From positions 1,613,800-1,677,799 of the forward strand of contig CBDFKX010000002.1 in NCBI GenBank assembly GCA_965249055.1: 64,000 nt of DNA. Direction: 5' to 3'. The number at the start of each line of letters is the position of its first letter. The first letter of the stretch is position 1. A model generated the notes under the pieces. The model had not been told where the DNA came from. It searched no databases and saw only the letters and a list, made by a program, of their open reading frames with translations. Positions 1 through 25,585 of the stretch are shown here, one piece after another. The translations under genes were made by a program, and so were the position numbers. This DNA is from Candidatus Aldehydirespiratoraceae bacterium. Lineage in GTDB: Bacteria > Actinomycetota > Acidimicrobiia > Acidimicrobiales > Aldehydirespiratoraceae.

Positions 1-2
1 AG

Positions 3-1506: not shown

Positions 1507-1852
1507 GTGCCTCCGTTGGCGAGGTAGGCTCTTGGGTTGGTTCGCAGGCCTTTGCGGGGAGGCATCGGCAGCGATACTAGCGCCGCGGCTGATGGGCTGT
1601 CTTCGGCGGGGCTGTCTGTCACACCCCTTGCGTAGGTTGTGTCGTACAAGATAGGTGTCGTACGGAACAGGTCTTCGGGGGTGTGGCAAACGAGATGCGT
1701 CGAATGAGCGAGCGATTTCACCGTCGTCCCCAGTCACGGCCGGATTCTTTGCTTCTGGCAGCGAGCATCCAGTTCTCCGTCAATCCCGAACTCTCTGTGC
1801 TGCACTTTTTGAACCAAGCAACAGACACCCGGCTGAGCGTCGGGGAGGAGTC

Positions 1853-2872: not shown

Positions 2873-4595
2873 CAGCACGTCGCGTCGCAGGATTTGGAGG
2901 CCGGGCTGTGAGCCGCTGCCCGCCCGAGAGGTCGCGGCTGTGGTGGGCGACACCAGCGTCGCGCCGCGAGCGGACGGCCCGCAGTCCTTGTCCTTTGCAG
3001 AAAGCACCGGGAGCCGCAGCACTCGCTCAGTCAATGGGGAGGGCTTGGAATGGTCGACTGATGAGATGCTGGTGTTCGCAGTGTCCTTCAAGCCGCTGTG
3101 GGAAGCGGCCGAGTCTGAGGAGCGGCGCATCAACGCCGCGTTCATGCCTTCCGCTGGCCGCAAGCGGCTTCACAGCATCTTTGAAGCGCACCTGTTCGCG
3201 ATTGCAGCCAAGGTCACGGGTGGTTACCGCGCCGCTGATCGAACTCTCAGCAACCCGGAGCTGTGGCAGCGTCTCGCGCGCGCCGTCGAGCGCGCTTATC
3301 CCGATAACCCTGACCGCAGGCTGTCATCGCAGCCGATCAGGCGTCACCACTACAGTTGGCTGCGCAAGCACCATCTCGGCGAAGAGGCCACCGCAGAACT
3401 GGCGGATCGCATGACCCATGCAGCCTTTGAGGCGATAGTCCACATGGGCGGGTTGGACCCCAAAGCCGGTTCGGTGACCCATCTGGACACTACCCAGATG
3501 CTCACCGGCGACGGCACTTGGATACCTGCCCTCTACAAGGCAACAAAACGCAAACGCATTGAAGCCGCCCATGCGGGAAGGCAACTGCGCGGCGACCCTG
3601 ACGCGGTGGCGTATCACGACGAGAACTCTCCGGGCGGGTCGCGAGGGTTCCCGGCCGTGATGGGCTCTTGGCGCAGCCCCCACCGCCAAGAACGGATTGT
3701 GACGTTCGCCGACATCAAGCCCCGCGGCAAAACCGACACCACCGTCTTCACTGACATGACCCTGCAAACCAAAAAGACCCACCCCGACCTCACCAAGGGG
3801 CTGAACGGCATCGCCTATGACATGGCGCTGTCATCACGGGACTGCGACGCGCTCCTTGACGGAGGCATCAACCCCATCTTTAAAGTGTCAAGAACACCCA
3901 CCGGGCACCTGGCCGCGGCGAACCTCGGTGACCACATCTTCCATCTTGCCTCCGGCCCCGGACAGCAGACCTCCATACAGGTCGTCGCCGTTGACGGCCC
4001 GCCCACCATCAAGACAGTGGACTCAGACGGCATCGCATATTTCGTGCCGCTGTCCAGAGTGCGAACCAATGCGCGCAAGCACCCGCGCCGCTGCACCTAC
4101 TACAGCGACTACGCAGTTCCCGATCATCCGCTGGTGCCGCGCCACCTCGTCGGGGCCACCACCCGCATCCGCCACAACAGCACCCGCGAAGAACGCGAAA
4201 TGACACCCCGCCACCAGCGGCGGACCCTCGCCCTGAGAATCGTTTCTGAGGCCGACCCCGACTTCGACTCTCTGTACGGACTGCGCGAGGACTCAGAATC
4301 CAACAACTCGCAATACAAGCAGACACTACATCACGGACGCGCCCGCACCGTAGGAGCTAACAGCCTCCGCCTGGACCTGCTCGCCTACCAGTGCGTAACC
4401 ATCATCACCGCGCTAGTAGCGCCCCACCGCCGCGTCAATTCCAGTTTGAAGGGCTGGTTCGGGGACTCGCCGCCACCGAGGCAACCCCACCGGCTGAGCC
4501 ACATCCCGGCGACTAGAACCCCAACCTCACGCGGACGCTTCACCGCCAAACAGTCCCGAACGCTTCCCCGCGCGCTCATAGACCCTCTGCAATAG
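2865..4595 (+). CDS. 576-aa protein with a DDE-transposase-like Y(2)R(3)E(6)K signature (family not recognised)
   Basis: ATG at 2865 overlaps the upstream stop (ATGGCTAG), implying translational coupling. An exact Y-GL-R-EDS-E-SNNSQY-K motif lies near the C-terminus. Candidate upstream acidic residues are MLTGDGTW and IAYDMALSS. The ORF is long and uninterrupted. Confidence 0.45.
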   Translation: MASSTSRRRIWRPGCEPLPAREVAAVVGDTSVAPRADGPQSLSFAESTGSRSTRSVNGEGLEWSTDEMLVFAVSFKPLWEAAESEERRINAAFMPSAGRKRLHSIFEAHLFAIAAKVTGGYRAADRTLSNPELWQRLARAVERAYPDNPDRRLSSQPIRRHHYSWLRKHHLGEEATAELADRMTHAAFEAIVHMGGLDPKAGSVTHLDTTQMLTGDGTWIPALYKATKRKRIEAAHAGRQLRGDPDAVAYHDENSPGGSRGFPAVMGSWRSPHRQERIVTFADIKPRGKTDTTVFTDMTLQTKKTHPDLTKGLNGIAYDMALSSRDCDALLDGGINPIFKVSRTPTGHLAAANLGDHIFHLASGPGQQTSIQVVAVDGPPTIKTVDSDGIAYFVPLSRVRTNARKHPRRCTYYSDYAVPDHPLVPRHLVGATTRIRHNSTREEREMTPRHQRRTLALRIVSEADPDFDSLYGLREDSESNNSQYKQTLHHGRARTVGANSLRLDLLAYQCVTIITALVAPHRRVNSSLKGWFGDSPPPRQPHRLSHIPATRTPTSRGRFTAKQSRTLPRALIDPLQ

Positions 4596-4688
4596 GCTCA
4601 GAGCGTGAACATCAACCCCAGACCATCCAGAACGAGCATCAATAACTAAAACTCCGCCACATAGTCTTCCAAACCCCGCCCCCGTAGC

Positions 4689-4761
4689 TCAGTGGATAGA
4701 GCGTCGGTTTCCTAAACCGTGCGTCGTAGGTTCGATTCCTGCCGGGGGCGCTCTGTGATGT
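4689..4761 (+). tRNA. tRNA-Arg (anticodon CCT), copy 1
   Basis: A 73-nt cloverleaf was read by hand. The acceptor is GCCCCCG/CGGGGGC, the D arm GCTC-AGTGGATA-GAGC, the anticodon loop TTCCTAA, and the T arm GTAGG-TTCGATT-CCTGC (one G:T pair). No CCA is encoded. Confidence 0.9.
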
Positions 4762-4804
4762 GTCAAGACATGTGCAAGGTGCGAACCTGCGCGGGACGGG
4801 GTTT

Positions 4805-5305
4805 TTAGGGTTGGTGTTGGGGTTGGTAGTCGCGGTTGGGGTTGAGGGTTAGGTGTCGGAGGAGTTCACCGGTTTGGGTTGCGATGACTCTGATGTCGAG
4901 GTCGGCGACTAGCAGGGTTACGGGGGTGTGTTTGTGGGCTCGGCCGATGCCGATGTGGTGGAGTCGGCTGTTGTGGCGGAGTGTGACGGAGCCTGTTTTG
5001 TCGACGCGGTCGTGGCGGACTCTGAAGTGGATGTCGGCACCGTTGTGTTCAGGACCGGTTTTGGGTAGTCGGGTGTAGGCGGCTGCTGGGGTTGAACGTC
5101 CGAGGGATCGGTGGGGGCGGTGGTGGTTGTAGGTGTCGACGAATTCGTTGAGGAGCGCCTGGAGTTCGTTGAGGTTGTTGGCGCAGGGTTGGGCTTTGAG
5201 CCATTTCTTGAGGGTTTGTTGGAAACGTTCGACTTTCCCGCAGGTGGTTGGGTGGTTGGGTGCAGAGTGCTTTTGGGCACCCCGACTGCGGCCGCGCCAG
5301 CCCGC
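4805..5305 (-). pseudogene. IS481-family transposase, C-terminal fragment only
   Basis: Hand translation of the minus strand gives HSAPNHPTTCGKVERFQQTLKKWL...LNEFVDTYNHHRPHRSLGRSTPAAAY...VDKTGSVTLRHNSRLHHIGIGRAH, ending at TAA (4805-4807). An in-frame stop lies just upstream at 5306-5308. There is no N-terminal or catalytic-core part, and the ORF track does not list it because it has no start codon. Confidence 0.8.
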
Positions 5306-5598
5306 TCACCGCGACCTGTTTGCCGCGCCGTGACAGCCGCGAGCAGATGCCTGGGCCAAGTTGCAAACCAGTTACTCGTGACTAGCCGCATCGTCCTCGG
5401 CATAGCGAACGCCTAGCCGCTGTTGTGCCGATCTGCCCGGCAGGGTTGGTCCGTGTCAACAGTCGGCCAATGATGAAGCTAAGTGTCATGTTGCACCATA
5501 CATGAGCCTGCGCAGAGCGCCGCATCACACCAACGAACGGGTAGAAGCGATAGCAGCGGGTCGCCCGATACGAAGATCGCTAAAGCCCCGCCCCCGTT

Positions 5599-5671
5599 GC
5601 CCCCGTAGCTCAGTGGATAGAGCGTCGGTTTCCTAAACCGTGCGTCGCAGGTTCGATTCCTGCCGGGGGCG
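5599..5671 (+). tRNA. tRNA-Arg (anticodon CCT), copy 2
   Basis: Identical to copy 1 except for one base in the T stem (GCAGG/CCTGC, fully paired). The anticodon loop is the same, TTCCTAA. Confidence 0.9.
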
Positions 5672-5734
5672 CTCTTGTGATGTGTCAAGACATAGGAACT
5701 GTTGTGGTTCAGGACATAGGAACCTTGTGAACCT

Positions 5735-10970: not shown

Positions 10971-12242
10971 TCAGGAAGTGGTCCAAAGACATGAGATCGG
11001 TAGGGCCAATATGCGGTCTTCGAGCCGGTAGGCACGTTCGCCGGTATGCAGGACCACGCCGCAAACGAAATCGTCGGACACCTTGTCGCGAAGCCAGCGC
11101 AAGTGCCGGGCATCAGATCTATCGACGGCAGGCCCCGACTTGATCTCAACCGCTACCAGCCGTCCGTCCGCCGCCTCAGCGACGACATCAATCTCCACGC
11201 CGCCACGATCGCGGAAATGATGCAGCGTGATGGCGCTGCGATGCCAGGACGCTTGGCGGTACATCTCATTGACGGCGAACGACTCGATGATCTGGCCACG
11301 AGCAGGGTCGGTAGGACGCGCCAGTGACTGCGGCGACTTGCCGAGGATGTGAGCAGCGAGTCCGCTGTCGGTGATATGCACCTTCTGTCGGCGGGTGGCC
11401 TTGCTAGTGAGATTCCGCGACCAGGCGGGCAACTGCAGCACCAGATAGGTCATCTGTAGGTACCCGAGGTATGCCTCGGTGGTGTGACGACTCCCAAACC
11501 CGGCGTCGTCGTGCAGGTTCTTCACCACCAACTCGCCCGCTGTACGCGCCGCTAGCAACTTCAGCAGTTTGGGCAGATCTTGCGTGCGCCGGGCACCGGA
11601 TAGATCCTTGATGTCGCGCTGGATGACGGTCCGCAGATAGTCGCGGAACCATTGCTGGCGGGCCTGCGGCGGCATGGAAATCGCCTCGGGGAAGCCACCT
11701 GTGCAGGCCCGCTCAAGGTAATCGCCCGTGCTCAGAGGCGAGGCTCCGCCTTCGATGAGGCGGTCAGGGTCTGAGAAAGCCGCTTCGATGAACCCATCAG
11801 GCTCATGGTGCATCTCGCCTTGAGTTAACGGCCACAGCTCCAAGAACGCAGCCCGCCCAGCGAGAGATTCTGAGATGGTCGGAACGGTCAGGAAGTCTGC
11901 CGACCCATTGAGCAGGAACTGGCCGCGTCTGGCGTCGTCGTCCACGACGCTCTTGATCGCCCGTATCAGAGGCTCCCCGGCGCGTTGCACCTCGTCGAAA
12001 GCCCGCGGGGTCTCTCCGAACGCTGCGAACCCATCCGGGTCGGCCAGCGCGGCTTGCAGTGTCGCGGCGCGGTCAAGCCGTGCAAAGGTGCCTGCACCGT
12101 CCAACACATGACGCACCAGGGTGGTCTTGCCCGCTTGTCGCGGCCCGGTGACCACCACGACTCGGAAATCACCCAACGCCCGGCGTGTGATCGGTTCGAG
12201 CCTCCTCGACAGTATGTCCACAACTCTCCCTGCTGCCATCAT
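10971..12242 (-). CDS. AAA+ ATPase with DUF4143-type C-terminal domain
   Basis: Walker A is VVVTGPRQAGKTTL. The overall pattern (FDEVQR, LLNGSA, WFRDYL...IQRDI, HFRDRGGVEIDVV) is that of the AAA_14/DUF4143 family. Confidence 0.85.
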   Translation of the reverse strand: MMAAGRVVDILSRRLEPITRRALGDFRVVVVTGPRQAGKTTLVRHVLDGAGTFARLDRAATLQAALADPDGFAAFGETPRAFDEVQRAGEPLIRAIKSVVDDDARRGQFLLNGSADFLTVPTISESLAGRAAFLELWPLTQGEMHHEPDGFIEAAFSDPDRLIEGGASPLSTGDYLERACTGGFPEAISMPPQARQQWFRDYLRTVIQRDIKDLSGARRTQDLPKLLKLLAARTAGELVVKNLHDDAGFGSRHTTEAYLGYLQMTYLVLQLPAWSRNLTSKATRRQKVHITDSGLAAHILGKSPQSLARPTDPARGQIIESFAVNEMYRQASWHRSAITLHHFRDRGGVEIDVVAEAADGRLVAVEIKSGPAVDRSDARHLRWLRDKVSDDFVCGVVLHTGERAYRLEDRILALPISCLWTTS

Positions 12243-12557: not shown

Positions 12558-12836
12558 ATGAGTAGAGTCAATTTGAGATCAGTCAGCGTTACCACCGGAC
12601 CACCTGCCTTTGATGGCGCTCTATGCGACAACCGCGGGTGCGCGTCAAAGGCGGAGGTGCAACTCACGTTCCGAACCCGCCGGAAGCATGCCTGTGAGAG
12701 ACACAAAGAAGAAATGGCGCAGGAACTGGTCAGGCCAGAGGCGGAAAAGCGTGCGTTTCAGCACGCAGAGAAAGAAGTCGAAAAAATGCTGGACAAGACA
12801 CTGGGCCGTACCCGCACCATCAATATCAAGTTCTAG
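12558..12836 (+). CDS. small Cys/His-containing hypothetical protein (92 aa)
   Basis: ATG ORF. The N-terminal part has C-x5-C...C-x2-H (CDNRGC...ACERH), and the C-terminal part is a charged helix. No family was recognised. Confidence 0.4.
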   Translation: MSRVNLRSVSVTTGPPAFDGALCDNRGCASKAEVQLTFRTRRKHACERHKEEMAQELVRPEAEKRAFQHAEKEVEKMLDKTLGRTRTINIKF

Positions 12837-13052: not shown

Positions 13053-14666
13053 TTACCCCCGAGAGTCGTCCGGCCCGGTCAGTATCGCACCGAGGGAATC
13101 CAAGAAAGAGATTGCATCTTCAAAGATGTCGGCTATCGCCCTCTGCCTGTCGTCGATTGAATGTTTCTGGAAAACTTTTGCTCGCTTAGCTCCCGCTCGA
13201 TGTTGGCAGACATTGCGGAGGTCGTTGATCTTCCGCAGGAAGCTGATGTTCTGCGTTAGTTGTTGATGGCCTTTTTGGGCGAGCCATCGTTCGAGTAGGT
13301 CGATGGACTTCTCGCCGGTTTCACCCTTCGCCAGTTCCGATTTCATCTGTGCGGTGTTGAGGCTTTCGACCAGTAGTTTGTGAAGAGCGTGAACTTGATT
13401 GCAGAACTCCGCATCGCTCCCTCGGGGTGGGACGCGGAGGCTTGCGAGGAGTCCAGGTTCGTCCTCGTCGGGGTCTCTGAGCAAGTCCCAACTCCAGGTT
13501 GCGGACCATCTGTCCCGGAACCTCTCGTATGCCTGTTGGAGCCGCCACGCTGGGGAGTCGGCTTCGGCCCATTCCCCCAAGATGTCACGCCTGACAGCGG
13601 TCTGGCTTGGAACCCCCTCGGGCACGACTATGTTGTGGGCGAGCCAGTGGTGGCGTTCCCGTTCGGGTAGGCAGCGTCCTAGGTCGCCGAGCCACACCGT
13701 CACATGGTCGGGATGGTTGTTGTCCAGCCGCATGTCCCAAAGCCCACCGCAGGCGAGGTGTCCGTCGCTCACGTCGTATTTCGAGTCGGCGTGGTAGCGG
13801 TCGAGCACATCTAAAGCGAAGTACACGGGCGTGACATAGTTCAAGGCATCGGGGTTGCGGCCGAAGTAATCGCCCAGCGCATCGGGATCGCAGGTGCTCT
13901 TGATTGGTTCACCCGCCGCTGTTTCGCCGACGACGAACTCCGGGTAGCCAACATCCTCCTCACGTCCGAACGGCCCTTCTCCGCACTCTGATCTGGGTGG
14001 GGGCAATATCAGCTTCTTGCCCAGAAGCAGAGACGACCAGTCGCCTGTTCGTGCGTTCCCCCGTACCGACAAGTGTAGGTAGTGGTTGTCGCCTCTGTAG
14101 TCGTGCTCCAGCACAGGATCGCTGCAAAAGGGGGCAGTGGTGATCACCGAATCCACGTATCGGACCAGCGCGACCTGTGCAGCCGCTTGAAACTGCCGCA
14201 ACAGCTTCGTGCGGACCCGGACGAGCGAGTCGCTCACCTCGCAGGCGACCTCGTCAGTACCGTCCTCATATAGCTTCTTGTATTCCCCGCAATCGGCGTG
14301 CCACAGGTTGTGGTGGAGACTGAACTCTTGAAGCAGGTGCGGAAGCATCTGCGGGAGGACCCCTAGGTGGTCTTGGATGATGGCGATGGGCTCGACTCCG
14401 TTGTCGCCGAAGGAACGGTCGTAGCCAACCTCGCCATCGCTAGTCCACCAAAGCGATGGCCCGCCACTTGCTATATGGATATCCCATTTGTAATCCTGCA
14501 AAATGGCAGGCACCGAAGATAGCGGAGCAAATCCGGCAAACAGTCCAGGGTCGCCACTGCGGTACACGATGGTCCAGGACCCCTCGTCGCCAGCGAGGAA
14601 CTCTTGCACCACTTCCCCTTGCCAGAATTCATCGGGAGGCTTCTGTCCCGTGGAAGGCACTCGCAC
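13053..14666 (-). CDS. 537-aa hypothetical protein with a C-terminal HEPN-like Rx4H motif
   Basis: Long clean ORF. The C-terminal ~70 aa (NISFLRKINDLRNVCQHRAGAKRAKVF...IFEDAISFLDSL) contain R-NVCQ-H in a helical-looking context. The N-terminal ~450 aa were not recognised. Confidence 0.6.
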   Translation of the reverse strand: MRVPSTGQKPPDEFWQGEVVQEFLAGDEGSWTIVYRSGDPGLFAGFAPLSSVPAILQDYKWDIHIASGGPSLWWTSDGEVGYDRSFGDNGVEPIAIIQDHLGVLPQMLPHLLQEFSLHHNLWHADCGEYKKLYEDGTDEVACEVSDSLVRVRTKLLRQFQAAAQVALVRYVDSVITTAPFCSDPVLEHDYRGDNHYLHLSVRGNARTGDWSSLLLGKKLILPPPRSECGEGPFGREEDVGYPEFVVGETAAGEPIKSTCDPDALGDYFGRNPDALNYVTPVYFALDVLDRYHADSKYDVSDGHLACGGLWDMRLDNNHPDHVTVWLGDLGRCLPERERHHWLAHNIVVPEGVPSQTAVRRDILGEWAEADSPAWRLQQAYERFRDRWSATWSWDLLRDPDEDEPGLLASLRVPPRGSDAEFCNQVHALHKLLVESLNTAQMKSELAKGETGEKSIDLLERWLAQKGHQQLTQNISFLRKINDLRNVCQHRAGAKRAKVFQKHSIDDRQRAIADIFEDAISFLDSLGAILTGPDDSRG

Positions 14667-15124
14667 AGCCTAGGACTTCACGCACCGTCGTCTCGTCCAT
14701 GCCACCACGAAACAATACGCGGTGAACAGTTCAATCCGGTCACAGCGAAGTCCATGTGATGCGCTAGGGATCGGGATCGGTGGAAGGCGACAGTGCCGGA
14801 AATGGTCTTTCACGCTGGGTTGTCTCTTCCCCCGAATCGGTCGATGAGTTGCTGCGTTATCTCGGACGTGCCGAACTTCGTTTCATGTTTGCGGCATAGC
14901 GGGACGGTCACCGACGCTTCACTGGCCCGGTCGGGAGCCGCATCCGCAGGAACGTTGTGCTCTTGAACCGACACCGCACGCCGACGAAGCAGATTCGCGA
15001 GCAGGATCAGCGAGTCCCCTGCGATCCCAGCATCCCTGCTTACGTGTGGGTGTCAACCCAACCGTGGTGACCACGATCCACCACTAGGGTGGTGTTGTTG
15101 CGACAGAGAAAGGGCCTCACAACC

Positions 15125-15980: not shown

Positions 15981-16874
15981 TTATGCTGCTTGTTCTAGTC
16001 GTTGTTGTTGGTGGTTCTCCCATTCTGTGGGGGTCAGGTAGTTGAGGGTGGAGTGGATTCTGTGGGTGTTGTAACGGCCGATCCAGGCGAAGATCTCTCG
16101 TCGTGCTTGGTTTCGGGTCGCGAACCGGGTTTGTGTGACGAGTTCTCGTTTCAACGATGAGAAGAACGACTCGGCGATGCTGTTGTCCCAGCAGTTGCCG
16201 ACCCGGCCAACAGATTGGCGCATGCCGTGTCGGCGTAGCGCGGAGGCGAAGTCACCGCTGAGGTATTGCGAGCCGCGGTCGGAGTGGAAGATAACCCCGG
16301 TAGTGCGGCCGCCTCTGGATGCGGCGGCTGTGTTGAGAGCGTCGATGACGAGACGGGCAGGCATATCCGCGGCCATGGAGTAGCCGATGACCCGCCTGGA
16401 CCCGATGTCTAACACGACAGCAAGGTGCAGCCAGCCCTGGCCCGTTGCGATGTAGGTGATGTCGCCCGCCCACACCGTGTCAGGCCGGCCGGGACCGAAG
16501 TCGCGGCGCACCAGATCATCAGGCGTCGAACACACACCAGCGGCTGGTCTGAAGCGGGGTTTGCGCCGCTTATAGATACCGCAGATCCCGTTGACCCGCA
16601 TCAACCGCTCAACACGTTTGTGGTTCACCCGCCGGCCCTGCCGACGCAGCACGGCGGTCACCCTCGGCGACCCGTAAGCCCCACCGGAGTCGCTGTGGAT
16701 GCGACGTATCTCATCGACCAGTTCGGCTGTGGCCAACTCTTTGAGGCTAGACCCCCGCGCTTGGCGGTCAGACCAGTCATAAAACGCCTGACGGCCCACA
16801 CCAGCGATCCGACACGACACTACAGTCGGGAACCCTTCGGCCTTCCGAGAAGCGACCCACAAATAGCGGGTCAC
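15981..16874 (-). CDS. IS3-family transposase OrfB (integrase core, DDE)
   Basis: The ORF contains WAGDITYI, HSDRGSQY and WDNSIAESFFSSLKRE...YNTHRIHSTLNYLTPTEWE. Confidence 0.95.
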   Translation of the reverse strand: MTRYLWVASRKAEGFPTVVSCRIAGVGRQAFYDWSDRQARGSSLKELATAELVDEIRRIHSDSGGAYGSPRVTAVLRRQGRRVNHKRVERLMRVNGICGIYKRRKPRFRPAAGVCSTPDDLVRRDFGPGRPDTVWAGDITYIATGQGWLHLAVVLDIGSRRVIGYSMAADMPARLVIDALNTAAASRGGRTTGVIFHSDRGSQYLSGDFASALRRHGMRQSVGRVGNCWDNSIAESFFSSLKRELVTQTRFATRNQARREIFAWIGRYNTHRIHSTLNYLTPTEWENHQQQRLEQAA

Positions 16875-17188
16875 TGCCCCGACTCCTGCACCCAGAAGGC
16901 CGTCGCTCGTTTGAGCAGTTCACGCTCCATCCTCAGCTTCGCGTTCTCCCGACGCAACCGCGTCAGCTCCACACGCTCCTCAGTGGTGAGACCTGGTTTG
17001 TCGCCTCGGTCAATACGGGCCTGACGAACCCAGTTCCCCAGATTGTTCGCACCGATCCCCAAATCACGCGCGACTCCAGCGATCGGCCTTTCCCCGTCCA
17101 ACACCAACGCCACAGCGTCAGCCTTGAACTCTCTACTGAACCGCCGCCGAGTCCTAACCGACAGCTTGTCTTGTTCCATCAATGACAT
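16871..17188 (-). CDS. IS3-family transposase OrfA (HTH)
   Basis: The ORF contains RRFSREFKADAVALV...IAGVARDLGIGANNLGNWVRQ...LRRENAKLRMERELLKRATAFW and overlaps orfB by 4 nt. Confidence 0.95.
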   Translation of the reverse strand: MSLMEQDKLSVRTRRRFSREFKADAVALVLDGERPIAGVARDLGIGANNLGNWVRQARIDRGDKPGLTTEERVELTRLRRENAKLRMERELLKRATAFWVQESGQ

Positions 17189-17373
17189 GAATACCTCCTA
17201 ATCGAGGTGTCCGGCCAAAGGGGGGATGCTCATACCGACACTGCTGAGGAATGGTTCATCGACCGCAATTGGTCCAGCGGTATGCGGTGCGGGGTCAGCG
17301 GCAACGTGGGAGTGCGTAAGGCGGCAAGGCAAATAACCGGAAGGCGATTCTCCCGCCTGGATCTCATTGCGCC

Positions 17374-18348
17374 ATGAGAGCCGCCGAGTTCTTCGCTGGC
17401 ATGGGTCTGATGAGAGCAGGTCTAGAACGGGTAGGAGTGACGACAGTCTTCGCGAACGACATCGACACGACCAAGGCCGCTCTCTACCGCTCCAACTGGG
17501 GCGACAACGAACTGATTGTAGAGGACATCCGCACACTGCGAGGCGATGACATCCCCGACGCCGAGATCGCCACTGCCTCGTTCCCGTGCGTAGACATGTC
17601 GCTGGCCGGCAACCTTGCGGGTCTCGACGGCGAACAGTCCGGTCTCATCACCGAGTTCTGCCGCATCCTCACGGAAATGGGCGAACGCCGACCTCGGGCT
17701 GTGATCGTCGAGAACGTGCCGGGTTTCACCACGGTGAACGATGGCCGAGACTTCGCCTTGGTCGTCGAGATGCTCGAAGCGCTGGGCTACACGGTGAACA
17801 CAGTGGTCGTCAACGCGTCGGCCTTCGTGCCGCAGAGTCGAGCCCGCGTGTTCCTACTAGGAGCGCTTGGTGAACAGCCGCTTCTTCCGGAAGTCCCGAC
17901 GGCGGCACCGCTGCGGCTGGTTGATATGGCCAGATCCGACGGCGACTGGTGGCTCCCCGACCGACGCGACGGTTTCTTGGAGACCCTGTCACCGTTGCAG
18001 CGCGACCGGGTCGAGTCTTGGCGCGGCGACGACCGTGTGCGGTTCCTCGGCGCGTTCCGTCGCACTCGCAACGGCCGCGCCGTGTGGGAGGTCCGAAGCG
18101 ACGAAATCGCCGGGGCGCTGCGCACCACAAGAGGAGGGTCATCGCGACAAGCCCTGGTACGGGTGGGGCGCGGCGGCTTCGATGTACGCTGGATGGACGT
18201 AGACGACTACGCCCTCCTACAAGGAGCCGAGACATTGACGTATGACGCGGTGTCGGAGCGTCAGGCCATGTTCGCGCTGGGCGATGCGGTGTGCGTCCCG
18301 GTCATCGAATGGCTAGGAGAGAATTGGCTGATGAGGCTGGCGGCTTGA
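17374..18348 (+). CDS. DNA (cytosine-5)-methyltransferase
   Basis: The motifs read EFFAGMGL (I), SFPCVDMSLAG (IV), IVENVPGF (VI), QSRARVF (VIII) and GDAVCVPV (X). Confidence 0.9.
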   Translation: MRAAEFFAGMGLMRAGLERVGVTTVFANDIDTTKAALYRSNWGDNELIVEDIRTLRGDDIPDAEIATASFPCVDMSLAGNLAGLDGEQSGLITEFCRILTEMGERRPRAVIVENVPGFTTVNDGRDFALVVEMLEALGYTVNTVVVNASAFVPQSRARVFLLGALGEQPLLPEVPTAAPLRLVDMARSDGDWWLPDRRDGFLETLSPLQRDRVESWRGDDRVRFLGAFRRTRNGRAVWEVRSDEIAGALRTTRGGSSRQALVRVGRGGFDVRWMDVDDYALLQGAETLTYDAVSERQAMFALGDAVCVPVIEWLGENWLMRLAA

Positions 18349-18588
18349 CTTCAGACTCGCCGCCGGAAGTCGACGCTCTCTACGACGGAGTGACACGACT
18401 GCTTGACGCCCCCGACCCGTCAGGTCGCAAGGTGGGCGACTGCACCTGCGGCGTGTACCTGTTCATCGACTACGACGGCGAGCCGATCTACGTCGGCCAG
18501 ACCAAAGAGAAGCTCCGCGTCCGAATCCGCCGACACCTGACCAACCAGCGCACGGACGCCGTGGCCATGCGGGTGCTCGACCCGTTAG

Positions 18589-20238
18589 CCTGGATCCACC
18601 GGTGCGGTGAGGTTGTGGGGGTTGGCGCGTCCACCAGAAAGGCCTCCTGACGTGGGAGAATGCTGTTTGATGTAACGGTCATTCTGGCCACGAGAGGAGG
18701 CACTTCCTGTGAGGAGCGTAGCTGGTGGGATCGACGGGTTGGGGGCGGTGTTCGATGATGGGTCTTTGGTGGCTGATGCGGGGTTGTTGCTGGCGGGCAC
18801 GGTGATGTCGAGGCTGGGTTTGGAGGCGTTGATCGACGACACGGTGCGTCCGGGCGGGTCGGCGGGTTCGGGGGCGGGTCACAAGGTGCTGTCTTTGGTG
18901 GCGTCGATGCTGGTGGGCGGGTGCTGCATCGACGACGCGCAGCGGCTGCGGTCGGGCTCGGCGGCGGCGGTGCTGCCGTTCGCGCCGTTGGCGCCGTCGA
19001 CGCTGGGGACGTTTTTGAGGTCGTTCACGTTCGGGCATGTGCGCCAACTCGACAAGGCTCTGGAGTCAGCACAGATGCGGGCGTGGTCTGTGGGCGCCGC
19101 GCCGAGCGTGGCGGAGATGACGGTGGATCTGGACTCCACGGTGTGTGAGGTGTGCGGCAAGGCCAAGCACGGCGCCGCGTACGGCCACACCAAGGTGTTG
19201 GGCTATCACCCGCTGGTGGCGGTGCGCTCAGACACCGGCGAGGTGCTGCACTCGCGGATGCGGTCGGGATCGTCTCAGCGCGGCAACGTGCACTTCGCTC
19301 GTGAGACCCTGGCGAGGGTGCGGCGCCTGGCGGCGCACGCGGCGGTGACGGTGCGCGCCGATGCGGGGTTCTTCTCCTATGACATGATCGCGGCCCTCGG
19401 CGCCCACGGTGCGTCCTACTCGATCACGATCCCGCAGAACGCCAAGGTCAAAGCAGCCATAGCGGCCATAGACGACGACGACTGGGCACCGATCGCCTAC
19501 ACCCGCGGCGGCGAGGCCCAAGTCGCTGAGACCACCATCGAAGCCGGCCGCCGCGGCGACAAGCTCCACGGCGACGACGCCAAGCCCGCGAAGCTGCGGC
19601 TCATCGTGCGCCGCACCCGCCTGCTCGGCGCCCAAGGCGAGCTGTGGCCCAACTGGCGCTACCACTGCTTCGTCACCGACAGACACGACCTCGACACCAA
19701 AGCCGCCGACACCTACCACCGAGCCCACGCCACCGTGGAGCTCGCCATCAGAGACCTCAAAGAGAGCGCCGGGCTCAGCCGCTGCCCCTCAGGACGATTC
19801 CCCGCCAACGGCGCCTGGCTCGCCTGCTGCGTGCTCGCGCACAACCTCGCCCGCTGGACCGCCCGCCTCGGCCGCGCCCACCCCACGCGCCAACTCACCG
19901 TCGCAGCCACCATCCGCAACCGGCTCCTCACCGTGCCAGGCCGCCTCGTCAACCACAGCGGCCGCCACAGACTGCGCCTGCCGCTCAACTGGCCCTGGCA
20001 GAACACCTTCACCACCGCCCTGCAACGAATCCGCAACCTCCCCCTGCTCATCTGAGCCGCCGCTCAGCGCCCCGCGCAGCGCAGCCCAACCCCAAGCGCC
20101 ACCAACCCGCCACAGCCCCGCACTCCAGTCCCGCACGCCCCAAAACGCCCCAAAACGCGCCAGCCCGCACACACGCACCAGCCCAACGACCACCCGGCCC
20201 CAAACCGACGATCCCACAAACCCGTCGGTGGATCCAGG
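18589..20238 (+). mobile_element. IS1380-family insertion sequence, complete (1650 bp)
   Basis: There is a 13-bp perfect terminal inverted repeat, CCTGGATCCACCG. A 5-bp target duplication GTTAG lies at 18584-18588 and 20239-20243. Confidence 0.9.
18709..20055 (+). CDS. IS1380-family DDE transposase
   Basis: The 448-aa ORF has a GTG start and contains VDLDSTVCEVCGKAKHGAAYGHTKVLGYHPL, VRADAGFFS and YHRAHATVELAIRDLKE...PSGRFPANGAWL. Confidence 0.9.
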   Translation: MRSVAGGIDGLGAVFDDGSLVADAGLLLAGTVMSRLGLEALIDDTVRPGGSAGSGAGHKVLSLVASMLVGGCCIDDAQRLRSGSAAAVLPFAPLAPSTLGTFLRSFTFGHVRQLDKALESAQMRAWSVGAAPSVAEMTVDLDSTVCEVCGKAKHGAAYGHTKVLGYHPLVAVRSDTGEVLHSRMRSGSSQRGNVHFARETLARVRRLAAHAAVTVRADAGFFSYDMIAALGAHGASYSITIPQNAKVKAAIAAIDDDDWAPIAYTRGGEAQVAETTIEAGRRGDKLHGDDAKPAKLRLIVRRTRLLGAQGELWPNWRYHCFVTDRHDLDTKAADTYHRAHATVELAIRDLKESAGLSRCPSGRFPANGAWLACCVLAHNLARWTARLGRAHPTRQLTVAATIRNRLLTVPGRLVNHSGRHRLRLPLNWPWQNTFTTALQRIRNLPLLI

Positions 20239-22902: not shown

Positions 22903-24132
22903 GTGTTATGTCGGGGCGCCGGGGATCGGGGCGCTACCGTTGCGGGGGTGTTTCTCTACGACACAGCGCGTAACTCGATAGTTCCCTTTGAACCGGGCGA
23001 AGAAGTATCGATTTATGTCTGCGGTATCACACCGTATGACTCGACTCATCTGGGCCACGCCAACACCTATCTGACCTACGACCTGCTGATCCGACGGCTC
23101 GAAGAACTCGGCCACACCGTGAAACTCGTCCGCAACATCACCGATGTCGACGACAGCATCCTTGGCAAGGCACGGGAGCTCGGCGTCGACTTCTTAGAGT
23201 TGGCGGCCGCCGAAACCGCACGCTTCCACGGTGACATGGCCGCGCTCAACACCCGACCCGTCACGGCCGAACCCCACGCCCGCGTATGGGTACCGGAGAT
23301 GATCGAGCTGATCACGACCCTCGAAAAAGGCGGCCACACCTACACCGTCGAAGGTGCCACATTCTTCGATGTGACGACCTTCGATACTTTCGGTGCGGTC
23401 TCCGGCTACGACGAGGCAACCATGATCGAACTGGCGGCCGAACGCGGCGGCCATCCCGACGACCCCCGCCAACGCAACCCCCTCGACTTCGTGCTGTGGC
23501 AACCGTCGCTGCCCGACGAACCCGCATGGCCCTCACCTTGGGGGCCGGGCCGCCCAGGATGGCACATCGAATGCAGCGCCATGTCGATGGGTCTGCTCGG
23601 CACCACCCTCGACCTTCACGGCGGCGGAAGCGACCTGATCTTCCCGCATCACGAATGCGAAAGAGCGCAAAGCGAAGCCGCCACCGGCACCACCTTCGTG
23701 CGGCACTGGATGCACTGCGGGATGGTCGCCTACGAAGGCACAAAGATGTCGAAATCGCTCGGCAACCTCGTCTTCGTCAGCGAACTGTCGAAGCTCGCCG
23801 ACCCAAGAGCGATCCGGCTAGCCCTGATGGCCCACCACTACCGCGACGACTGGGAATGGTTCGACGATGACATCGCCGAGGCCGCGGCGGGACTTGATTT
23901 GCTGCTCGCGGCAGCTAACACCAGCGCAGGACCCGACCCGGCCCCCTTCGCAAGCCGCATGCGCGCCGCCCTTGACAACGACCTCAACGCCCCCCAAGCA
24001 CGAAATGAGTTGCTTGGACTCGCCACAGCCATTCTCGCAGGAGGCGACGACCCGACAGCACCAGCCGTGCTGGGAGAATTGGCCGGTGTGTACGGCATTG
24101 AACTAGATACCCCGGCGGCTCCGGTCGCCTAA
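22903..24132 (+). CDS. mshC: cysteine--1-D-myo-inosityl 2-amino-2-deoxy-alpha-D-glucopyranoside ligase (mycothiol ligase)
   Basis: This is a CysRS paralogue lacking the anticodon-binding C-terminus (~409 aa). It contains YVCGITPYDSTHLGHANTY, GRPGWHIECSAMS, FPHHECERAQ and KMSKSLGN, and ends with a HYRDDWEW-type tail. The start codon (GTG 22903) is uncertain. Confidence 0.8.
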   Translation: MLCRGAGDRGATVAGVFLYDTARNSIVPFEPGEEVSIYVCGITPYDSTHLGHANTYLTYDLLIRRLEELGHTVKLVRNITDVDDSILGKARELGVDFLELAAAETARFHGDMAALNTRPVTAEPHARVWVPEMIELITTLEKGGHTYTVEGATFFDVTTFDTFGAVSGYDEATMIELAAERGGHPDDPRQRNPLDFVLWQPSLPDEPAWPSPWGPGRPGWHIECSAMSMGLLGTTLDLHGGGSDLIFPHHECERAQSEAATGTTFVRHWMHCGMVAYEGTKMSKSLGNLVFVSELSKLADPRAIRLALMAHHYRDDWEWFDDDIAEAAAGLDLLLAAANTSAGPDPAPFASRMRAALDNDLNAPQARNELLGLATAILAGGDDPTAPAVLGELAGVYGIELDTPAAPVA

Positions 24133-24178: not shown

Positions 24179-25585
24179 TTGATCCGCTTATACGACACGC
24201 TCTCCTTGAAGGTTCGGCCCCTGGCCCAGCGAGACCCCGGCAAGGTCTCGTTCTACGCCTGCGGGCCCACGGTCTATGACCACCCGCACCTCGGTCATGC
24301 CCGCCAAGCCCTCACCTACGATGTCTTACGCCGCTACCTCGAATGGCGAGGCGTTGAGGTTCATCACGTCGCCAACGTCACCGATATCGACGACAACATC
24401 ATCAACCGGGCCAACACGGAAGGCCTCACCGAACCTCAAGTGGCCGAACGATGGGAAGCGATCTACATCGAAGTGATGGACGAACTCAACATTCTGCATC
24501 CCCACGACCGACCACACGCCACCGAATTCGTCGACGAAATGGTTGCGTTCATCGAGACCCTCGTAAGCAACGGATCGGCCTACACCACCGAATCCGGTGT
24601 ATATCTGCGGGTGCGTTCCGTGCCGGGATACGGCGACCTCGTACACCGCAGCTTTGACGAACTCGCGGCAGGTTCAGGCGCACGAGTTGAAGTCGATGAG
24701 TTCAAAGAGGATCCGCTCGACTTCGCTCTCTGGAAGTCGGCCAAGCCCAACGAACCAACCTGGCCCTCACCGTGGGGACCCGGACGCCCGGGCTGGCACA
24801 TCGAATGCGTGGCCATGAGCCTCGGTCTCCTCGGCGACGGATTCGACCTCCACGGCGGAGGCGATGATCTCGTCTTCCCTCATCACACCAACGAACGGGC
24901 CGAAGCGATCGCCGCGGGTCGGCCGTTCGCGCAGCACTGGCTGCACAACGCCATGCTCAACGTCGGCGGCGAGAAGATGGCCAAGTCGCTCGGCAACTTC
25001 CGCACCGTTCGCGACCTGCTCGACGAACACCCCCTCAACGCCCGGGCCTTGCGCCTGCTGCTGCTACAGACTCATTACCGCAAGACGATGGAGGTCAACG
25101 CCGAGGTGATGACTCAGGCCCGGGCTGGCATCGAGCGCATCGACGCCATGGCTCGCAGGGCCAACGCCGCTGGCATTTCTCTTGACGGAACCAAGCGAGC
25201 TACCGCGTCGCTTGAGGCGTTTCAGGCTGCGATGGCCAACGACCTGGGTACCCCCGAAGCCATCGCCGTCATCTTCGACACGGTTCGGAAAGCCAACACG
25301 GCCCTCGATGCAAGCGGCACCTGCGATACCGCAGAAGCTGCTTCCTTGGTCGCCACTGTGGTCGATCTGGCTGGAGCGCTCGGTATCGGAGTCGGCGGAC
25401 CTCGTGGCACTGGAAGCGCTAATGGTTCGGCTAGCGATGATGAGATCGAGGCGTTGGTTGCGGCTCGTTCTGCAGCACGAGAAGCCAAGGACTTCGCCCA
25501 AGCCGACCGAATTCGCGAAGAACTTACAGCGTTGGGCATCGCGGTAGAAGACACCCCCAGCGGCTCCGGTTGGCACCGGCCGTAG
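24179..25585 (+). CDS. cysS: cysteine--tRNA ligase
   Basis: The 468-aa ORF has a TTG start. It contains YACGPTVYDHPHLGHAR, GRPGWHIECVAMS, FPHHTNE and KMAKSLGN, plus a C-terminal DALR/anticodon domain ending ADRIREELTALGIAVEDTPSG. Confidence 0.95.
   Translation: MIRLYDTLSLKVRPLAQRDPGKVSFYACGPTVYDHPHLGHARQALTYDVLRRYLEWRGVEVHHVANVTDIDDNIINRANTEGLTEPQVAERWEAIYIEVMDELNILHPHDRPHATEFVDEMVAFIETLVSNGSAYTTESGVYLRVRSVPGYGDLVHRSFDELAAGSGARVEVDEFKEDPLDFALWKSAKPNEPTWPSPWGPGRPGWHIECVAMSLGLLGDGFDLHGGGDDLVFPHHTNERAEAIAAGRPFAQHWLHNAMLNVGGEKMAKSLGNFRTVRDLLDEHPLNARALRLLLLQTHYRKTMEVNAEVMTQARAGIERIDAMARRANAAGISLDGTKRATASLEAFQAAMANDLGTPEAIAVIFDTVRKANTALDASGTCDTAEAASLVATVVDLAGALGIGVGGPRGTGSANGSASDDEIEALVAARSAAREAKDFAQADRIREELTALGIAVEDTPSGSGWHRP

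What the first reader, a model, noticed from the sequence alone, without database searches (positions are those of the whole stretch)
13053..14666. Orphan 537-aa protein with a C-terminal HEPN-like Rx4H motif in the IS-rich island
This is a single large gene with no recognisable N-terminal domain. It is flanked by small unassigned ORFs, a DUF4143 ATPase and IS elements. The last ~70 residues read ...NISFLRKINDLRNVCQHRAGAKRAKVF...IFEDAISFLDSL. The R-N-x-x-x-H spacing and the RN dipeptide are what HEPN RNase domains of Abi2/AbiD-F-type abortive-infection proteins show. A large sensor-like N-terminus plus a HEPN effector is a common single-gene defence architecture. Nothing else explains this gene.
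Basis: inference. Interest (0 to 1): 0.6.

Follow-up and report, generated by a model that had tools for sequence, protein, structure and literature searches.

The report
Unnamed HEPN-type single-gene defence family
This gene is not an orphan: it belongs to a large, unnamed, horizontally mobile protein family that joins an unknown, highly conserved front part to a probable HEPN RNA-cutting tail, and it most likely acts as a one-gene anti-phage suicide switch, a known type of system with a new sensor part.

Summary
The 537-aa ORF (13053-14666, minus strand) and its C-terminal RNVCQH string are real. "Orphan" is wrong: at least 1,443 50%-identity clusters exist, nearly all about 540 aa, in 12 phyla. 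No Pfam, NCBIfam, PADLOC or PHROG model matches.

Six Rx4-6H strings occur in the protein, about what chance gives. Only R484/H489 is conserved (97% and 99% of 207 members), and these are the only invariant columns of the C-terminal domain.

The AF2 domain model (pLDDT 92.8) is a helical bundle, with the motif at a helix end and loop start as HEPN requires. Its best PDB match is the HEPN toxin HepT (prob 0.91, but E 0.14). hhalign puts the motif onto the Abi_2 motif, beating 150 of 150 shuffles, at the low level true HEPN families reach against each other.

Three variants that gained a PNP-type nucleosidase domain have all lost the His.

No partner or antitoxin gene is conserved. Recurrent neighbours are Type I and Type ISP R-M (at least 7 independent associations), integrases and a GMT island.

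It is not ApeA, Abi_2, PrrC or a tested GAPS. This scan met a likely relative before on other DNA (e1-2388279). Function is untested.

The parts
13053..14666 (-). Whole gene (537 codons plus stop): member of an unnamed family of proteins about 540 aa long
   Evidence: ORF list and translation. Family size. dN/dS 0.18-0.33.
13947..14666 (-). N-terminal region, residues 1-240: beta-rich, moderately conserved (W31, W61, P70, Y82, P93, E114-F115, G136, G216-K217). No known family. Putative sensor or regulatory part.
   Evidence: AF2 secondary structure. Conservation. No hits in Pfam, PADLOC, NCBIfam or PHROGs. Not detectable by tblastn in the Rhodococcus and Streptomyces plasmid relatives.
13572..13946 (-). 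Middle domain, residues 241-365: the most conserved block of the family. It holds F283, Y291, W310 and W341 at or near 100%, and D301, D315, N316, D328, E337, N345, S354 and R360 at 90-98%. Putative ligand or trigger pocket, or a second active site.
   Evidence: Mean column identity is 0.65-0.67 for residues 261-340, against 0.57 or less around the HEPN motif. Invariant columns. No fold match for the full-length model.
13056..13571 (-). C-terminal helical domain, residues 366-537: probable HEPN RNase domain. Helix 1 is about 372-391. Helix 2 is about 418-434 and has an acidic residue at 434. A helical insert spans 438-464. Helix 3 is 470-487 and helix 4 is 493-530.
   Evidence: AF2 domain model, pLDDT 92.8 and pTM 0.88. 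Foldseek top hit is HepT, and sacsin HEPN is also listed. hhalign to Abi_2. Position 434 is acidic in 206 of 207 members. HEPN criteria come from PMC3710099.
13200..13217 (-). Predicted catalytic motif R484-N-V-C-Q-H489 (Rx4H; family consensus LRSxxxAHRKG)
   Evidence: The only invariant columns in the 56-sequence domain alignment. R in 201 of 207 and H in 205 of 206 members. Spacing is always 4-6 residues: 35, 150 and 12 members. The His is lost only in the three PNP-fusion variants.
10971..12242 (-). Context only: DUF4143/AAA_14 ATPase, a neighbour and not a partner
   Evidence: Pfam. A relative lies near the target in only 2 of 85 other loci, at 30-35% identity and in different positions.
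15981..20055 (.). Context only: IS3 element, C5 cytosine methyltransferase (17374-18348), GIY-YIG fragment (18291-18650) and an IS1380-type transposase. Together these form the IS-rich, R-M-bearing side of the island.
   Evidence: Pfam. Earlier notes e1-2842106 and e1-2842107.
4678..5672 (+). Context only: two tRNA-Arg(CCT) genes that mark the left end of the island
   Evidence: ARAGORN.

Best explanation
The gene encodes a self-contained, single-polypeptide abortive-infection-type immune protein.

Shown: it belongs to a large, horizontally mobile, accessory family with no conserved partner gene. It has a beta-rich N-terminal region, a very strongly conserved middle domain and a C-terminal helical bundle. 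The only invariant residues of that bundle are an Arg and a His in Rx4-6H spacing, placed at the end of a helix.

Inferred: the C-terminal bundle is a HEPN ribonuclease. As in other HEPN enzymes, two copies would pair to form a metal-independent active site from two Rx4-6H motifs. The N-terminal and middle domains would hold it inactive until they detect a cue of infection, such as a phage protein, a nucleic-acid structure, a small degradation product, or the disabling of a neighbouring restriction-modification system. Once released, it would cut cellular RNA, most likely tRNA anticodon loops as PrrC, ApeA and DARNA do. That would stop translation and abort the infection.

In this window the copy is intact and under purifying selection. 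It sits alone in an IS-riddled tRNA-Arg island beside a broken Dcm/GIY-YIG module, uncoupled from the Type I R-M that accompanies four of its five closest relatives.
For: Family and mobility:
- 1,443 clusters, almost all 530-560 aa and collinear.
- 222 relatives found in a scan of 185,579 species genomes, in 12 phyla.
- Present in 3 of 17 congeners, at only 38-85% identity.
- The tree is incongruent with taxonomy.
- No synteny even with the 85%-identical copy.

HEPN:
- R484 and H489 are the only invariant columns of the C-terminal domain, at 97% and 99% over 207 members.
- Spacing is always 4-6, and the residue after R is polar in about 96%.
- The motif lies at the end of helix 470-487 and the start of the next loop, which is the position PMC3710099 defines.
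- Position 434, at the end of the helix-2 equivalent, is acidic in 206 of 207 members. A helical insert lies between helices 2 and 3.
- Best PDB fold match is HepT 7bxo_G (prob 0.91). 6m6u_H, 3o10_C and 7ae9_D are also listed.
- hhalign puts LRxLQxLRSxaAH onto the Abi_2 motif LrxLvxfRNicAH. The score of 24.3 exceeds all 150 column shuffles, whose maximum is 19.2. Bona fide HEPN families score the same or worse against each other in the same assay.

Effector logic: three variants (P0168, P0237, P0238) keep the scaffold and add a PF01048 nucleosidase-type domain from a clade that is fused to TIR, NACHT and NB-ARC. All three have lost the His.

Context:
- No conserved neighbour or small ORF.
- Recurrent neighbours are Type I R-M in 10 loci and Type ISP/IIG R-M in 6 loci. 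In L026, L030, L034 and L050 the order is hsdM-hsdS-X-...-hsdR on one strand.
- Other recurrent neighbours are Uma2/PDC-S03 and integrases.
- These associations need at least 3 and at least 4 independent changes on the tree.
- One copy is the first cargo gene after gmtX in a catalogued GMT island.

Precedents: PrrC inside hsdMSR, and at least 16 HEPN clades linked to R-M. ApeA and DARNA are single-protein HEPN tRNases switched on by ligands bound to non-catalytic domains.
Against: - No statistically significant fold or profile match. Foldseek E>=0.14 and TM<0.5. hhalign probability is only 4-8%, over 27-36 columns. There is nothing against HepT, DUF4145, Ymh or ApeA profiles.
- No Pfam HEPN-clan model hits any of 48 members.
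- Most members have Ser after the Arg, not the N, D or H that the HEPN survey calls typical.
- The middle domain is more conserved than the putative nuclease domain and carries several near-invariant Asp, Glu and Asn residues. The key chemistry could therefore lie there.
- Most of the 149 immediate neighbours are unrelated singletons, some of them housekeeping.
- The family is absent from 50,697 phage records and from PADLOC.
- The three PNP-fusion proteins probably represent one evolutionary event.
No experiment of any kind.
Confidence: 0.7

Rival explanations
1. The C-terminal bundle is HEPN-like in shape but is not the nuclease. The real activity or ligand chemistry lies in the ultra-conserved middle domain (D301, D315, N316, D328, E337, N345, S354, R360), for example a metal-dependent nuclease or hydrolase. 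R484 and H489 would then serve in binding or regulation. It would still be a defence or conflict protein, working by a different mechanism.
For: Residues 261-340 are the most conserved block (0.65-0.67 mean identity), with a cluster of near-invariant acidic and amide residues. The fold and profile evidence for HEPN is sub-threshold. In the PNP-fusion variants the Arg and the scaffold are retained, so the bundle also has a non-catalytic role.
Against: R484 and H489 are as conserved as any middle-domain residue, and they are the only invariant residues of their domain. The His is lost precisely when another effector domain is gained. The middle domain matches no nuclease or hydrolase family or fold.
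Confidence: 0.12
2. It is a selfish stabilisation or competition toxin of mobile elements (addiction or exclusion of rival elements) and not an anti-phage protein.
For: It lies next to integrases, in a GMT island, on plasmids and in IS-rich islands. One source labelled a homologue 'plasmid stabilization system protein ParE' (P0043).
Against: No antitoxin-like partner or conserved small ORF exists anywhere in the family. The repeated embedding in R-M operons and defence-cargo slots is the pattern of defence genes. The 'ParE' label has no support from any profile.
Confidence: 0.08
3. It is an accessory or regulatory subunit of restriction-modification systems, modulating HsdR or HsdM or acting in anti-restriction control, and has no independent effector role.
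For: It is embedded between hsdS and hsdR in Verrucomicrobiota and Nitrospira loci, and lies next to fused hsdM-S genes in the window's own clade.
Against: About 80% of loci, including this window, have no R-M gene within 5 kb. The slot between hsdS and hsdR also holds unrelated cargo: an AAA plus S8 peptidase pair, DUF3800 and DUF6932. It also associates with mechanistically different Type ISP enzymes.
Confidence: 0.05
4. It is a housekeeping RNA-processing or metabolic enzyme that merely happens to lie in an island here.
For: Some neighbours in other genomes are housekeeping genes, such as a tRNA synthetase, DnaB and S1.
Against: Found in 6 of 61 related genomes and 222 hits in a scan of 185,579 species genomes. 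Copies within one genus are only 38-85% identical. Phylogeny is incongruent with taxonomy, and no synteny is conserved.
Confidence: 0.03

Closest known systems
ApeA (single-gene HEPN anti-phage system; Pfam HEPN_Apea PF18739 plus ApeA_NTD1)
   Same: One polypeptide of about 450-640 aa with a C-terminal HEPN domain whose nearest solved relative is HepT. Large non-catalytic N-terminal and middle domains act as the sensor. Sometimes embedded in R-M operons. It is a tRNA anticodon nuclease, activated when a ligand binds a pocket away from the active site.
   Different: No Pfam or PADLOC ApeA hit at E<=10. hhalign probability is 0.1-0.3%, both full-length and C-terminal. The ApeA motif is RNYYxH, against LRSxxxAHRKG here. 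The ApeA N-terminal and Mid domains are described as predominantly alpha-helical, whereas residues 30-325 here are beta-rich.
PrrC / RloC anticodon nucleases
   Same: C-terminal HEPN RNase regulated by the N-terminal part of the same polypeptide. PrrC lies between hsdS and hsdR of a Type I R-M and fires when that R-M is inhibited. The same gene order occurs in L026, L030, L034 and L050.
   Different: PrrC and RloC have an ABC-ATPase N-terminus, and this family has no P-loop or any ATPase match. Most members, including this one, are not next to an R-M.
Abi_2 family (AbiD, AbiD1, AbiF; Pfam PF07751)
   Same: Stand-alone Abi-type proteins with a C-terminal HEPN. This is the only family whose profile aligns to this domain, and it does so exactly at the catalytic motif. 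The alignment beats all 150 shuffles. The family is described as embedded in R-M operons.
   Different: No Pfam Abi_2 hit for any of 48 members. hhalign probability is only 4-8%. Proteins here are about 540 aa against about 300 aa, and the N-terminal two-thirds are unrelated.
HepT (HEPN toxin of the MntA-HepT toxin-antitoxin pair)
   Same: Best structural match of the C-terminal domain: 7bxo_G prob 0.91, with 6m6u_H and 7ae9_D also listed. It represents the minimal four-helix HEPN with Rx4H at the end of helix 3.
   Different: HepT is about 130 aa and always pairs with an MNT antitoxin that AMPylates it. This family has no partner gene, and hhalign against HepT finds nothing.
DARNA (single-protein HEPN tRNase activated by ssDNA bound to phage SSB)
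   Same: Single-gene logic, HEPN dimers, tRNA cleavage, and a trigger sensed by the non-catalytic domain.
   Different: Opposite domain order: the HEPN is N-terminal and an all-helical domain is C-terminal.

Membership tests
HEPN superfamily | Rx4-6H motif, strongly conserved, with a polar residue after the R | tested here: met
   R in 201 of 207 members and H in 205 of 206. Spacing of 4, 5 or 6 in 35, 150 and 12 members. The residue after R is S, N, D or T in about 96%. Ser is commoner here than the N, D or H called typical in PMC3710099.
HEPN superfamily | Motif located at the end of core helix 3 and the start of the loop to helix 4 | tested here: met
   In both AF2 models, R484 is the fourth-last residue of helix 470-487 and H489 lies in the loop 488-492. 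The criterion is quoted from PMC3710099. This is predicted structure, not experimental.
HEPN superfamily | Four-helix up-down bundle, with solved HEPN domains as the nearest folds | tested here: inconclusive
   The domain is confidently all-helical (pLDDT 92.8). The top PDB hit is HepT (prob 0.91, TM 0.45 by target), and sacsin HEPN and two more HepT entries are listed. All E>=0.14, and TetR, PA28 and vinculin-type bundles are interleaved.
HEPN superfamily | Conserved acidic residue in helix 2, and an insert between helices 2 and 3 | tested here: met
   Position 434, at the end of helix 418-434, is D or E in 206 of 207 members, and E420 is E in 182 of 207. Helices 438-444 and 454-464 lie between it and helix 470-487. 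Spatial proximity to the motif was not checked.
HEPN superfamily | Significant profile-profile match to an established HEPN family (75-98% HHpred probability in PMC3710099) | tested here: inconclusive
   Best is Abi_2, at 4-8% probability and P 0.0045-0.009, motif on motif, beating 150 of 150 shuffles. With the same small alignments, true HEPN families reach only 0.2-4.7% against each other, except DUF4145 against Ymh at 59.6%. No full HHpred database was available.
HEPN superfamily | Metal-independent RNase activity that depends on the R and the H | not testable with these tools
   This needs protein biochemistry. The only indirect evidence is the loss of H in the three variants that gained a PNP-type domain.
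Abi_2 (AbiD/AbiF, PF07751) | Match to the Pfam Abi_2 model above its gathering score | tested here: not met
   No hit at E<=10 for the query and none among 48 members.
ApeA | Match to HEPN_Apea or ApeA_NTD1 (Pfam), or to the PADLOC ApeA models | tested here: not met
   No Pfam or PADLOC hit. hhalign probability against 8 ApeA sequences is 0.1-0.3%.
ApeA | Predominantly alpha-helical N-terminal and Mid domains that form the ligand pocket with the HEPN domain | tested here: not met
   Residues 30-325 are predicted to be mostly beta strands, whereas the ApeA cryo-EM description is predominantly helical.
PrrC/RloC | N-terminal ABC-type ATPase domain | tested here: not met
   No ATPase or P-loop family hits in any library.
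PrrC/RloC | Gene embedded within a Type I hsdMSR operon | tested here: inconclusive
   Met in L026, L027, L030, L034 and L050, and the gene lies next to hsdM in L006-L008, L010 and L021. Not met in this window or in most loci.
HepT-MntA type toxin-antitoxin | Adjacent MNT (nucleotidyltransferase) antitoxin gene | tested here: not met
   No conserved neighbour or small ORF across 85 loci.
Known defence systems (PADLOC 2.0, including PDC candidates) and GMT-island GAPS2, 7, 8, 9, 12, 13 | Profile match to a catalogued defence protein | tested here: not met
   PADLOC gives 0 families at E<=10. The N-termini of these six GAPS candidates score below 0 bits against the family HMM, while control N-termini of distant members score 90-112 bits. 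GAPS1, 3-6, 10 and 11 were not scanned against the HMM.

The most novel reading that the evidence does not exclude
The N-terminal and middle module (about 365 aa, no detectable relative in Pfam, PDB sequences or Foldseek) is a new sensor fold. It carries a conserved pocket that reads a small-molecule or nucleic-acid signal of infection, or the status of an adjoining R-M enzyme. It can drive interchangeable effectors: a HEPN RNase in most members, and a PNP-type nucleosidase in a side branch. That would define a new, phylum-spanning family of single-protein immune switches, and a new trigger-recognition principle alongside ApeA (deoxydinucleotides), DARNA (ssDNA bound to phage SSB) and PrrC (loss of R-M).
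Probability: 0.3. Interest if true: 0.7.

Novelty: new variant of a known kind. Interest (0 to 1): 0.5.

Why it matters
Single-protein HEPN nucleases such as PrrC, ApeA and DARNA currently give some of the clearest views of how bacteria turn an infection cue into RNA cleavage, and each new sensor module has revealed a different cue. This family is large (at least 1,443 clusters in 12 phyla) and completely unannotated. It is missed by Pfam, NCBIfam, PADLOC and PHROGs, and two-thirds of the protein has no known relative.

If defence is confirmed, it would add a widespread system to defence catalogues. That matters most for under-sampled lineages such as Acidimicrobiia sponge symbionts, Verrucomicrobiota, Nitrospirota and Chloroflexota. 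It would also give a tractable case of effector swapping (HEPN to PNP) and another R-M-embedded second-line defence to compare with PrrC.

If it is ordinary, the practical gain is still an annotation for thousands of 'hypothetical proteins'.

Tried and rejected
Searches that found nothing:
- Pfam, NCBIfam, PADLOC and PHROGs on the query and on family members gave nothing meaningful.
- Profile searches against PDB sequences with the full-length and C-terminal alignments gave only chance hits, E>=0.16.
- Foldseek of the full-length model against PDB and BFVD gave nothing, best E 0.07 and TM<0.2.
- hhalign of the C-terminal domain against HepT, DUF4145, Ymh and ApeA gave nothing. The global-mode alignment to Abi_2 was worse than the local one.
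- The phage collection had no match.
- The promoter and terminator scan showed nothing above shuffled expectation.

Ideas rejected:
- A conserved partner gene: the largest neighbour cluster covers 8 of 85 loci.
- A small antitoxin ORF: clusters form only among near-identical loci.
- The DUF4143 ATPase as a partner: it appears in 2 of 85 loci, at different positions.
- Synteny with the closest relatives L006-L010: none apart from that ATPase family.
- Identity with the GMT-island systems GAPS2, 7, 8, 9, 12 and 13.

Corrections made along the way:
- I first flagged L031, L047 and L073 as broken. They merely overshot the natural stop.
- The ApeA-NTD1 lead from the 2013 table ('mostly beta strands, conserved aromatics') looked promising, but neither profiles nor the 2026 ApeA structures bore it out.

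Full report
**1. The observation.** The window holds an intact ORF at 13053..14666 on the minus strand, 537 codons from a GTG. The public gene call for the identical protein starts two codons later and gives 535 aa (P0002). Pfam, NCBIfam and PADLOC return nothing credible at E<=10.

The neighbours are as described:
- a DUF4143/AAA_14 ATPase at 10971-12242
- an IS3 element at 15981-17188
- a C5 cytosine methyltransferase followed by a GIY-YIG fragment
- an IS1380-type transposase
- small ORFs with no family

The island runs from two tRNA-Arg(CCT) genes at 4678 and 5599 to about 22 kb. After that come two class-I Cys-type tRNA-synthetase homologues.

**2. Not an orphan.** A word-indexed search found 94 homologues down to 28% identity, nearly all 520-565 aa and collinear, none with a precomputed Pfam domain and all named 'hypothetical'. 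The exhaustive search of 1.84 billion cluster representatives found 1,443 at E<=1e-3 and 502 at E<=1e-30. A scan of 185,579 species genomes confirmed 222 relatives. The 80 best fall in 12 phyla:
- Actinomycetota
- Pseudomonadota
- Verrucomicrobiota
- Nitrospirota
- Planctomycetota
- Chloroflexota
- Cyanobacteriota
- Bacillota
- Elusimicrobiota
- Armatimonadota
- Acidobacteriota
- Myxococcota

The window's genome is an Acidimicrobiales lineage close to sponge-associated Candidatus Poriferisocius MAGs. Within its own genus, only 3 of 17 other genomes carry a copy, at 38-85% identity, and only 6 of 61 relatives overall. The protein tree conflicts with taxonomy: a gammaproteobacterial MAG sits inside Acidimicrobiales, cyanobacteria inside Pseudomonadota, and Nitrospira inside Verrucomicrobiota. 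Flanking genes are not shared even with the 85%-identical copy. The gene is therefore accessory and horizontally mobile. dN/dS of 0.18-0.33 against four relatives shows it is a functional coding gene.

**3. Is the motif more than chance?** The bare string is not. The protein contains six Rx4-6H strings where about four are expected from its composition. The signal is in conservation. Over 207 members, R484 is R in 201 (K in 3) and H489 is H in 205 of 206. The other five strings are 6-63% conserved. In a 56-sequence alignment of the C-terminal domain built from DNA of fetched loci, R484 and H489 are the only invariant columns. Spacing stays within the HEPN range: Rx4H in 35 members, Rx5H in 150 and Rx6H in 12. 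The residue after R is S, N, D or T in about 96%. The family consensus is LRSxxxAHRKG, and the window's clade has the shorter RNxxxH form.

**4. Structure.** With a 48-sequence alignment, AlphaFold2 gave a confident full-length model (pLDDT 89.1, pTM 0.78). It is beta-rich from about residue 30 to 325 and all-helical from 326 to 535. Foldseek of the whole model against PDB and BFVD found nothing.

The C-terminal domain alone (residues 366-537) folded at pLDDT 92.8 and pTM 0.88 as a helical bundle. Its top PDB match is the HEPN toxin HepT (7bxo_G, prob 0.91, TM 0.45 by target). A second HepT entry (6m6u_H), the sacsin HEPN domain (3o10_C) and another HEPN toxin (7ae9_D) are in the top 50. Every E-value is >=0.14, and unrelated helical bundles are interleaved. 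I rate the fold test as suggestive, not decisive.

Against the structural definition in Anantharaman et al. 2013 (PMC3710099), three features fit:
- The motif lies at the end of one core helix (470-487) and the start of the following loop.
- The preceding core helix (418-434) ends in a residue that is acidic in 206 of 207 members.
- Extra helices are inserted between those two helices.

**5. Profile-profile tests with a yardstick.** I fetched bona fide members of HepT, Abi_2, DUF4145, Ymh and ApeA from genomes and ran hhalign locally.

Only Abi_2 (AbiD/AbiF) gave a signal. It aligns LRxLQxLRSxaAH onto LrxLvxfRNicAH, R on R and H on H, with P of 0.0045-0.009 and a probability of 4-8%. The score of 24.3 exceeds all 150 column-shuffled controls, whose maximum is 19.2.

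The same assay gives true HEPN families no more against each other:
- HepT against Abi_2: 2.1%
- HepT against Ymh: 4.3%
- Abi_2 against DUF4145: 4.7%
- HepT against DUF4145: 0.2%
- DUF4145 against Ymh: 59.6%, the only pair to stand out

The domain is therefore as close to Abi_2 as accepted HEPN clades are to one another, but the assay cannot prove membership.

**6. A natural experiment.** Three proteins (P0168, P0237, P0238, 853-918 aa) match the family HMM over essentially its whole length and carry an extra C-terminal domain. That domain is of the PF01048 MTA/SAH-nucleosidase type (E 1.3e-6 to 4qez). Its closest relatives are fused to TIR, NACHT, NB-ARC and receiver domains, which is the signature of a shuffled immune effector. 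From my own knowledge, domains of this class act as ATP nucleosidases in Detocs and some CBASS systems.

In all three, the catalytic His is gone (K, G, or the motif deleted), while the Arg and the scaffold remain. The His is present in all 205 canonical members. This is what one expects if Rx4-6H is the effector site and the rest of the protein is the sensor. It is probably a single evolutionary event.

**7. Genomic context.** I clustered all flanking ORFs of 85 loci. No universal neighbour exists, since the largest cluster covers 8 loci. No conserved small ORF exists either. The gene is a stand-alone unit without an antitoxin.

The recurrent neighbours are:
- Type I R-M subunits in 10 loci
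- Type ISP/IIG R-M enzymes in 6 loci
- Uma2/PDC-S03 in 4 loci
- tyrosine integrases in 8 loci

In L026, L030, L034 and L050 the order is hsdM-hsdS-X-...-hsdR on one strand. This is the arrangement of the HEPN anticodon nuclease PrrC.

The gap between hsdS and hsdR is shared with other variable cargo: an AAA ATPase plus S8 peptidase pair, DUF3800 and DUF6932. In L018 the neighbour is a Swt1-like HEPN protein.

Among the 149 immediate neighbours from 78 loci, R-M domains, integrases and AbiEii-like AAA_21 are the only repeated families. The rest are singletons, some of them housekeeping.

On the tree, Type I adjacency needs at least 3 changes and Type ISP adjacency at least 4, so the link to R-M recurs and is not one hitch-hiking clade.

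Other contexts:
- Prim-Pol/DUF3987 integrative elements and ArdA/Lsr2 elements.
- A P. syringae megaplasmid, where the gene is the first cargo gene after gmtY, a VPA1269-family gene and gmtX. That island is catalogued in the Gamma-Mobile-Trio study, which showed such cargo to be rich in defence systems.

By my rough estimate, which is an inference and not a computation, about 20% of loci having an R-M within 5 kb is an order of magnitude above what a random gene would show.

The window's copy is the exception in its own clade. Four of its five closest relatives adjoin a Type I R-M, while it lies between a DUF4143 ATPase and an IS3 element. That ATPase recurs in only 2 of 85 loci and is not a partner.

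**8. Comparison with known systems.**
- The family is not Abi_2: there is no Pfam hit.
- It is not ApeA. There is no Pfam or PADLOC hit, hhalign probability is 0.1-0.3%, and ApeA's sensor domains are helical whereas these are beta-rich.
- It is not PrrC or RloC: there is no ATPase.
- It is not a HepT-MNT pair: there is no partner.
- It is not DARNA: the domain order is opposite.
- It does not match GAPS2, 7, 8, 9, 12 or 13.
- It is absent from phage genomes.

It works like these systems. The recent ApeA and DARNA preprints show single-protein HEPN tRNases held inactive until a ligand binds the non-catalytic domains. That is the mechanism I infer here.

What is distinct is the sensor. About 365 residues have no detectable relative, and the middle block (261-340) is the most conserved part of the protein. 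It carries near-invariant D301, D315, N316, D328, E337, N345, S354 and R360. That block is either the trigger pocket or, as the main rival reading holds, a second active site.

My confidence is about 0.8 that the tail is a HEPN-type catalytic domain and about 0.7 that the whole protein is a single-gene anti-phage or conflict effector. The RNA target and the trigger are unknown.

An earlier follow-up in this scan (e1-2388279) met a 'stand-alone HEPN-like protein' beside an R-M cluster in another genome that shares sequence words with this one. The family has therefore been met before on other DNA.

It is a new variant of a known kind, useful to defence-system cataloguing and mechanistic work, but not surprising in principle.

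Noticed in passing
P0168, P0237, P0238 (metagenomic proteins; no window coordinates): A side branch of the family adds a C-terminal PF01048 (MTA/SAH-nucleosidase-like) domain from a clade that is otherwise fused to TIR, NACHT and NB-ARC. This branch has lost the HEPN His. It is a candidate effector swap and worth its own study.
   Followed up: partly
L061:6734-7928, L062:6735-7928, L078:1536-2720, L080, L083: In Psychrobacter, Thiodiazotropha and Pseudoteredinibacter, a gene of about 395 aa sits 73-77 bp upstream on the same strand. It has no Pfam or PADLOC hit and matches only phrog_18195 (unknown function, E 1.6e-25). It may form a clade-specific two-gene variant.
   Followed up: partly
L026:7488-11000 and L027:2023-5535: An AAA ATPase plus S8 subtilase gene pair is embedded with the target between hsdS and hsdR of a Type I R-M. 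This looks like another candidate defence cargo pair.
   Followed up: no
L018:6868-7983: In Nocardioides sp. J54 the gene directly upstream of the target, after a Type ISP enzyme, is a Swt1-like HEPN plus DUF3320 protein. Two different HEPN proteins therefore lie side by side.
   Followed up: no
Plasmid hits H2-H8, e.g. L178:5281-6903: Proteins of about 540 aa on Rhodococcus and Streptomyces plasmids match only query residues ~226-525, the middle and C-terminal domains. The first ~220 residues appear to be a replaceable or fast-evolving module.
   Followed up: no
L029:4279-5715 (Bradyrhizobium MAG): This copy has an in-frame stop inside the C-terminal domain (…EE*KYPY…). It may be a pseudogene or an assembly error.
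   Followed up: no
window 12558-12836 (+) and 14810-14974 (-): The two small unassigned ORFs flanking the gene both contain a Cys-x-[KR]-His string (HACERHKEE and PLCRKHETK). There is no family hit and they are not conserved next to homologues, so this is probably chance.
   Followed up: partly
window 22903-24132 and 24179-25585 (+): Two adjacent class-I Cys-type tRNA-synthetase homologues mark the return to core genome. The second carries DALR and CysS_C domains. This is probably the usual actinobacterial MshC and CysS pair, and ordinary.
   Followed up: no
window 1-4595: The three large ORFs at the left edge (356, 405 and 607 aa) gave no Pfam hit at E<=1e-4.
   Followed up: partly
L006-L010 versus window 13053-14666: Four of the five closest relatives of the window's protein lie beside a Type I R-M, either a fused hsdM-S with or without hsdR, or hsdM alone. 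The window's copy does not, and IS activity in the island may have separated them.
   Followed up: partly
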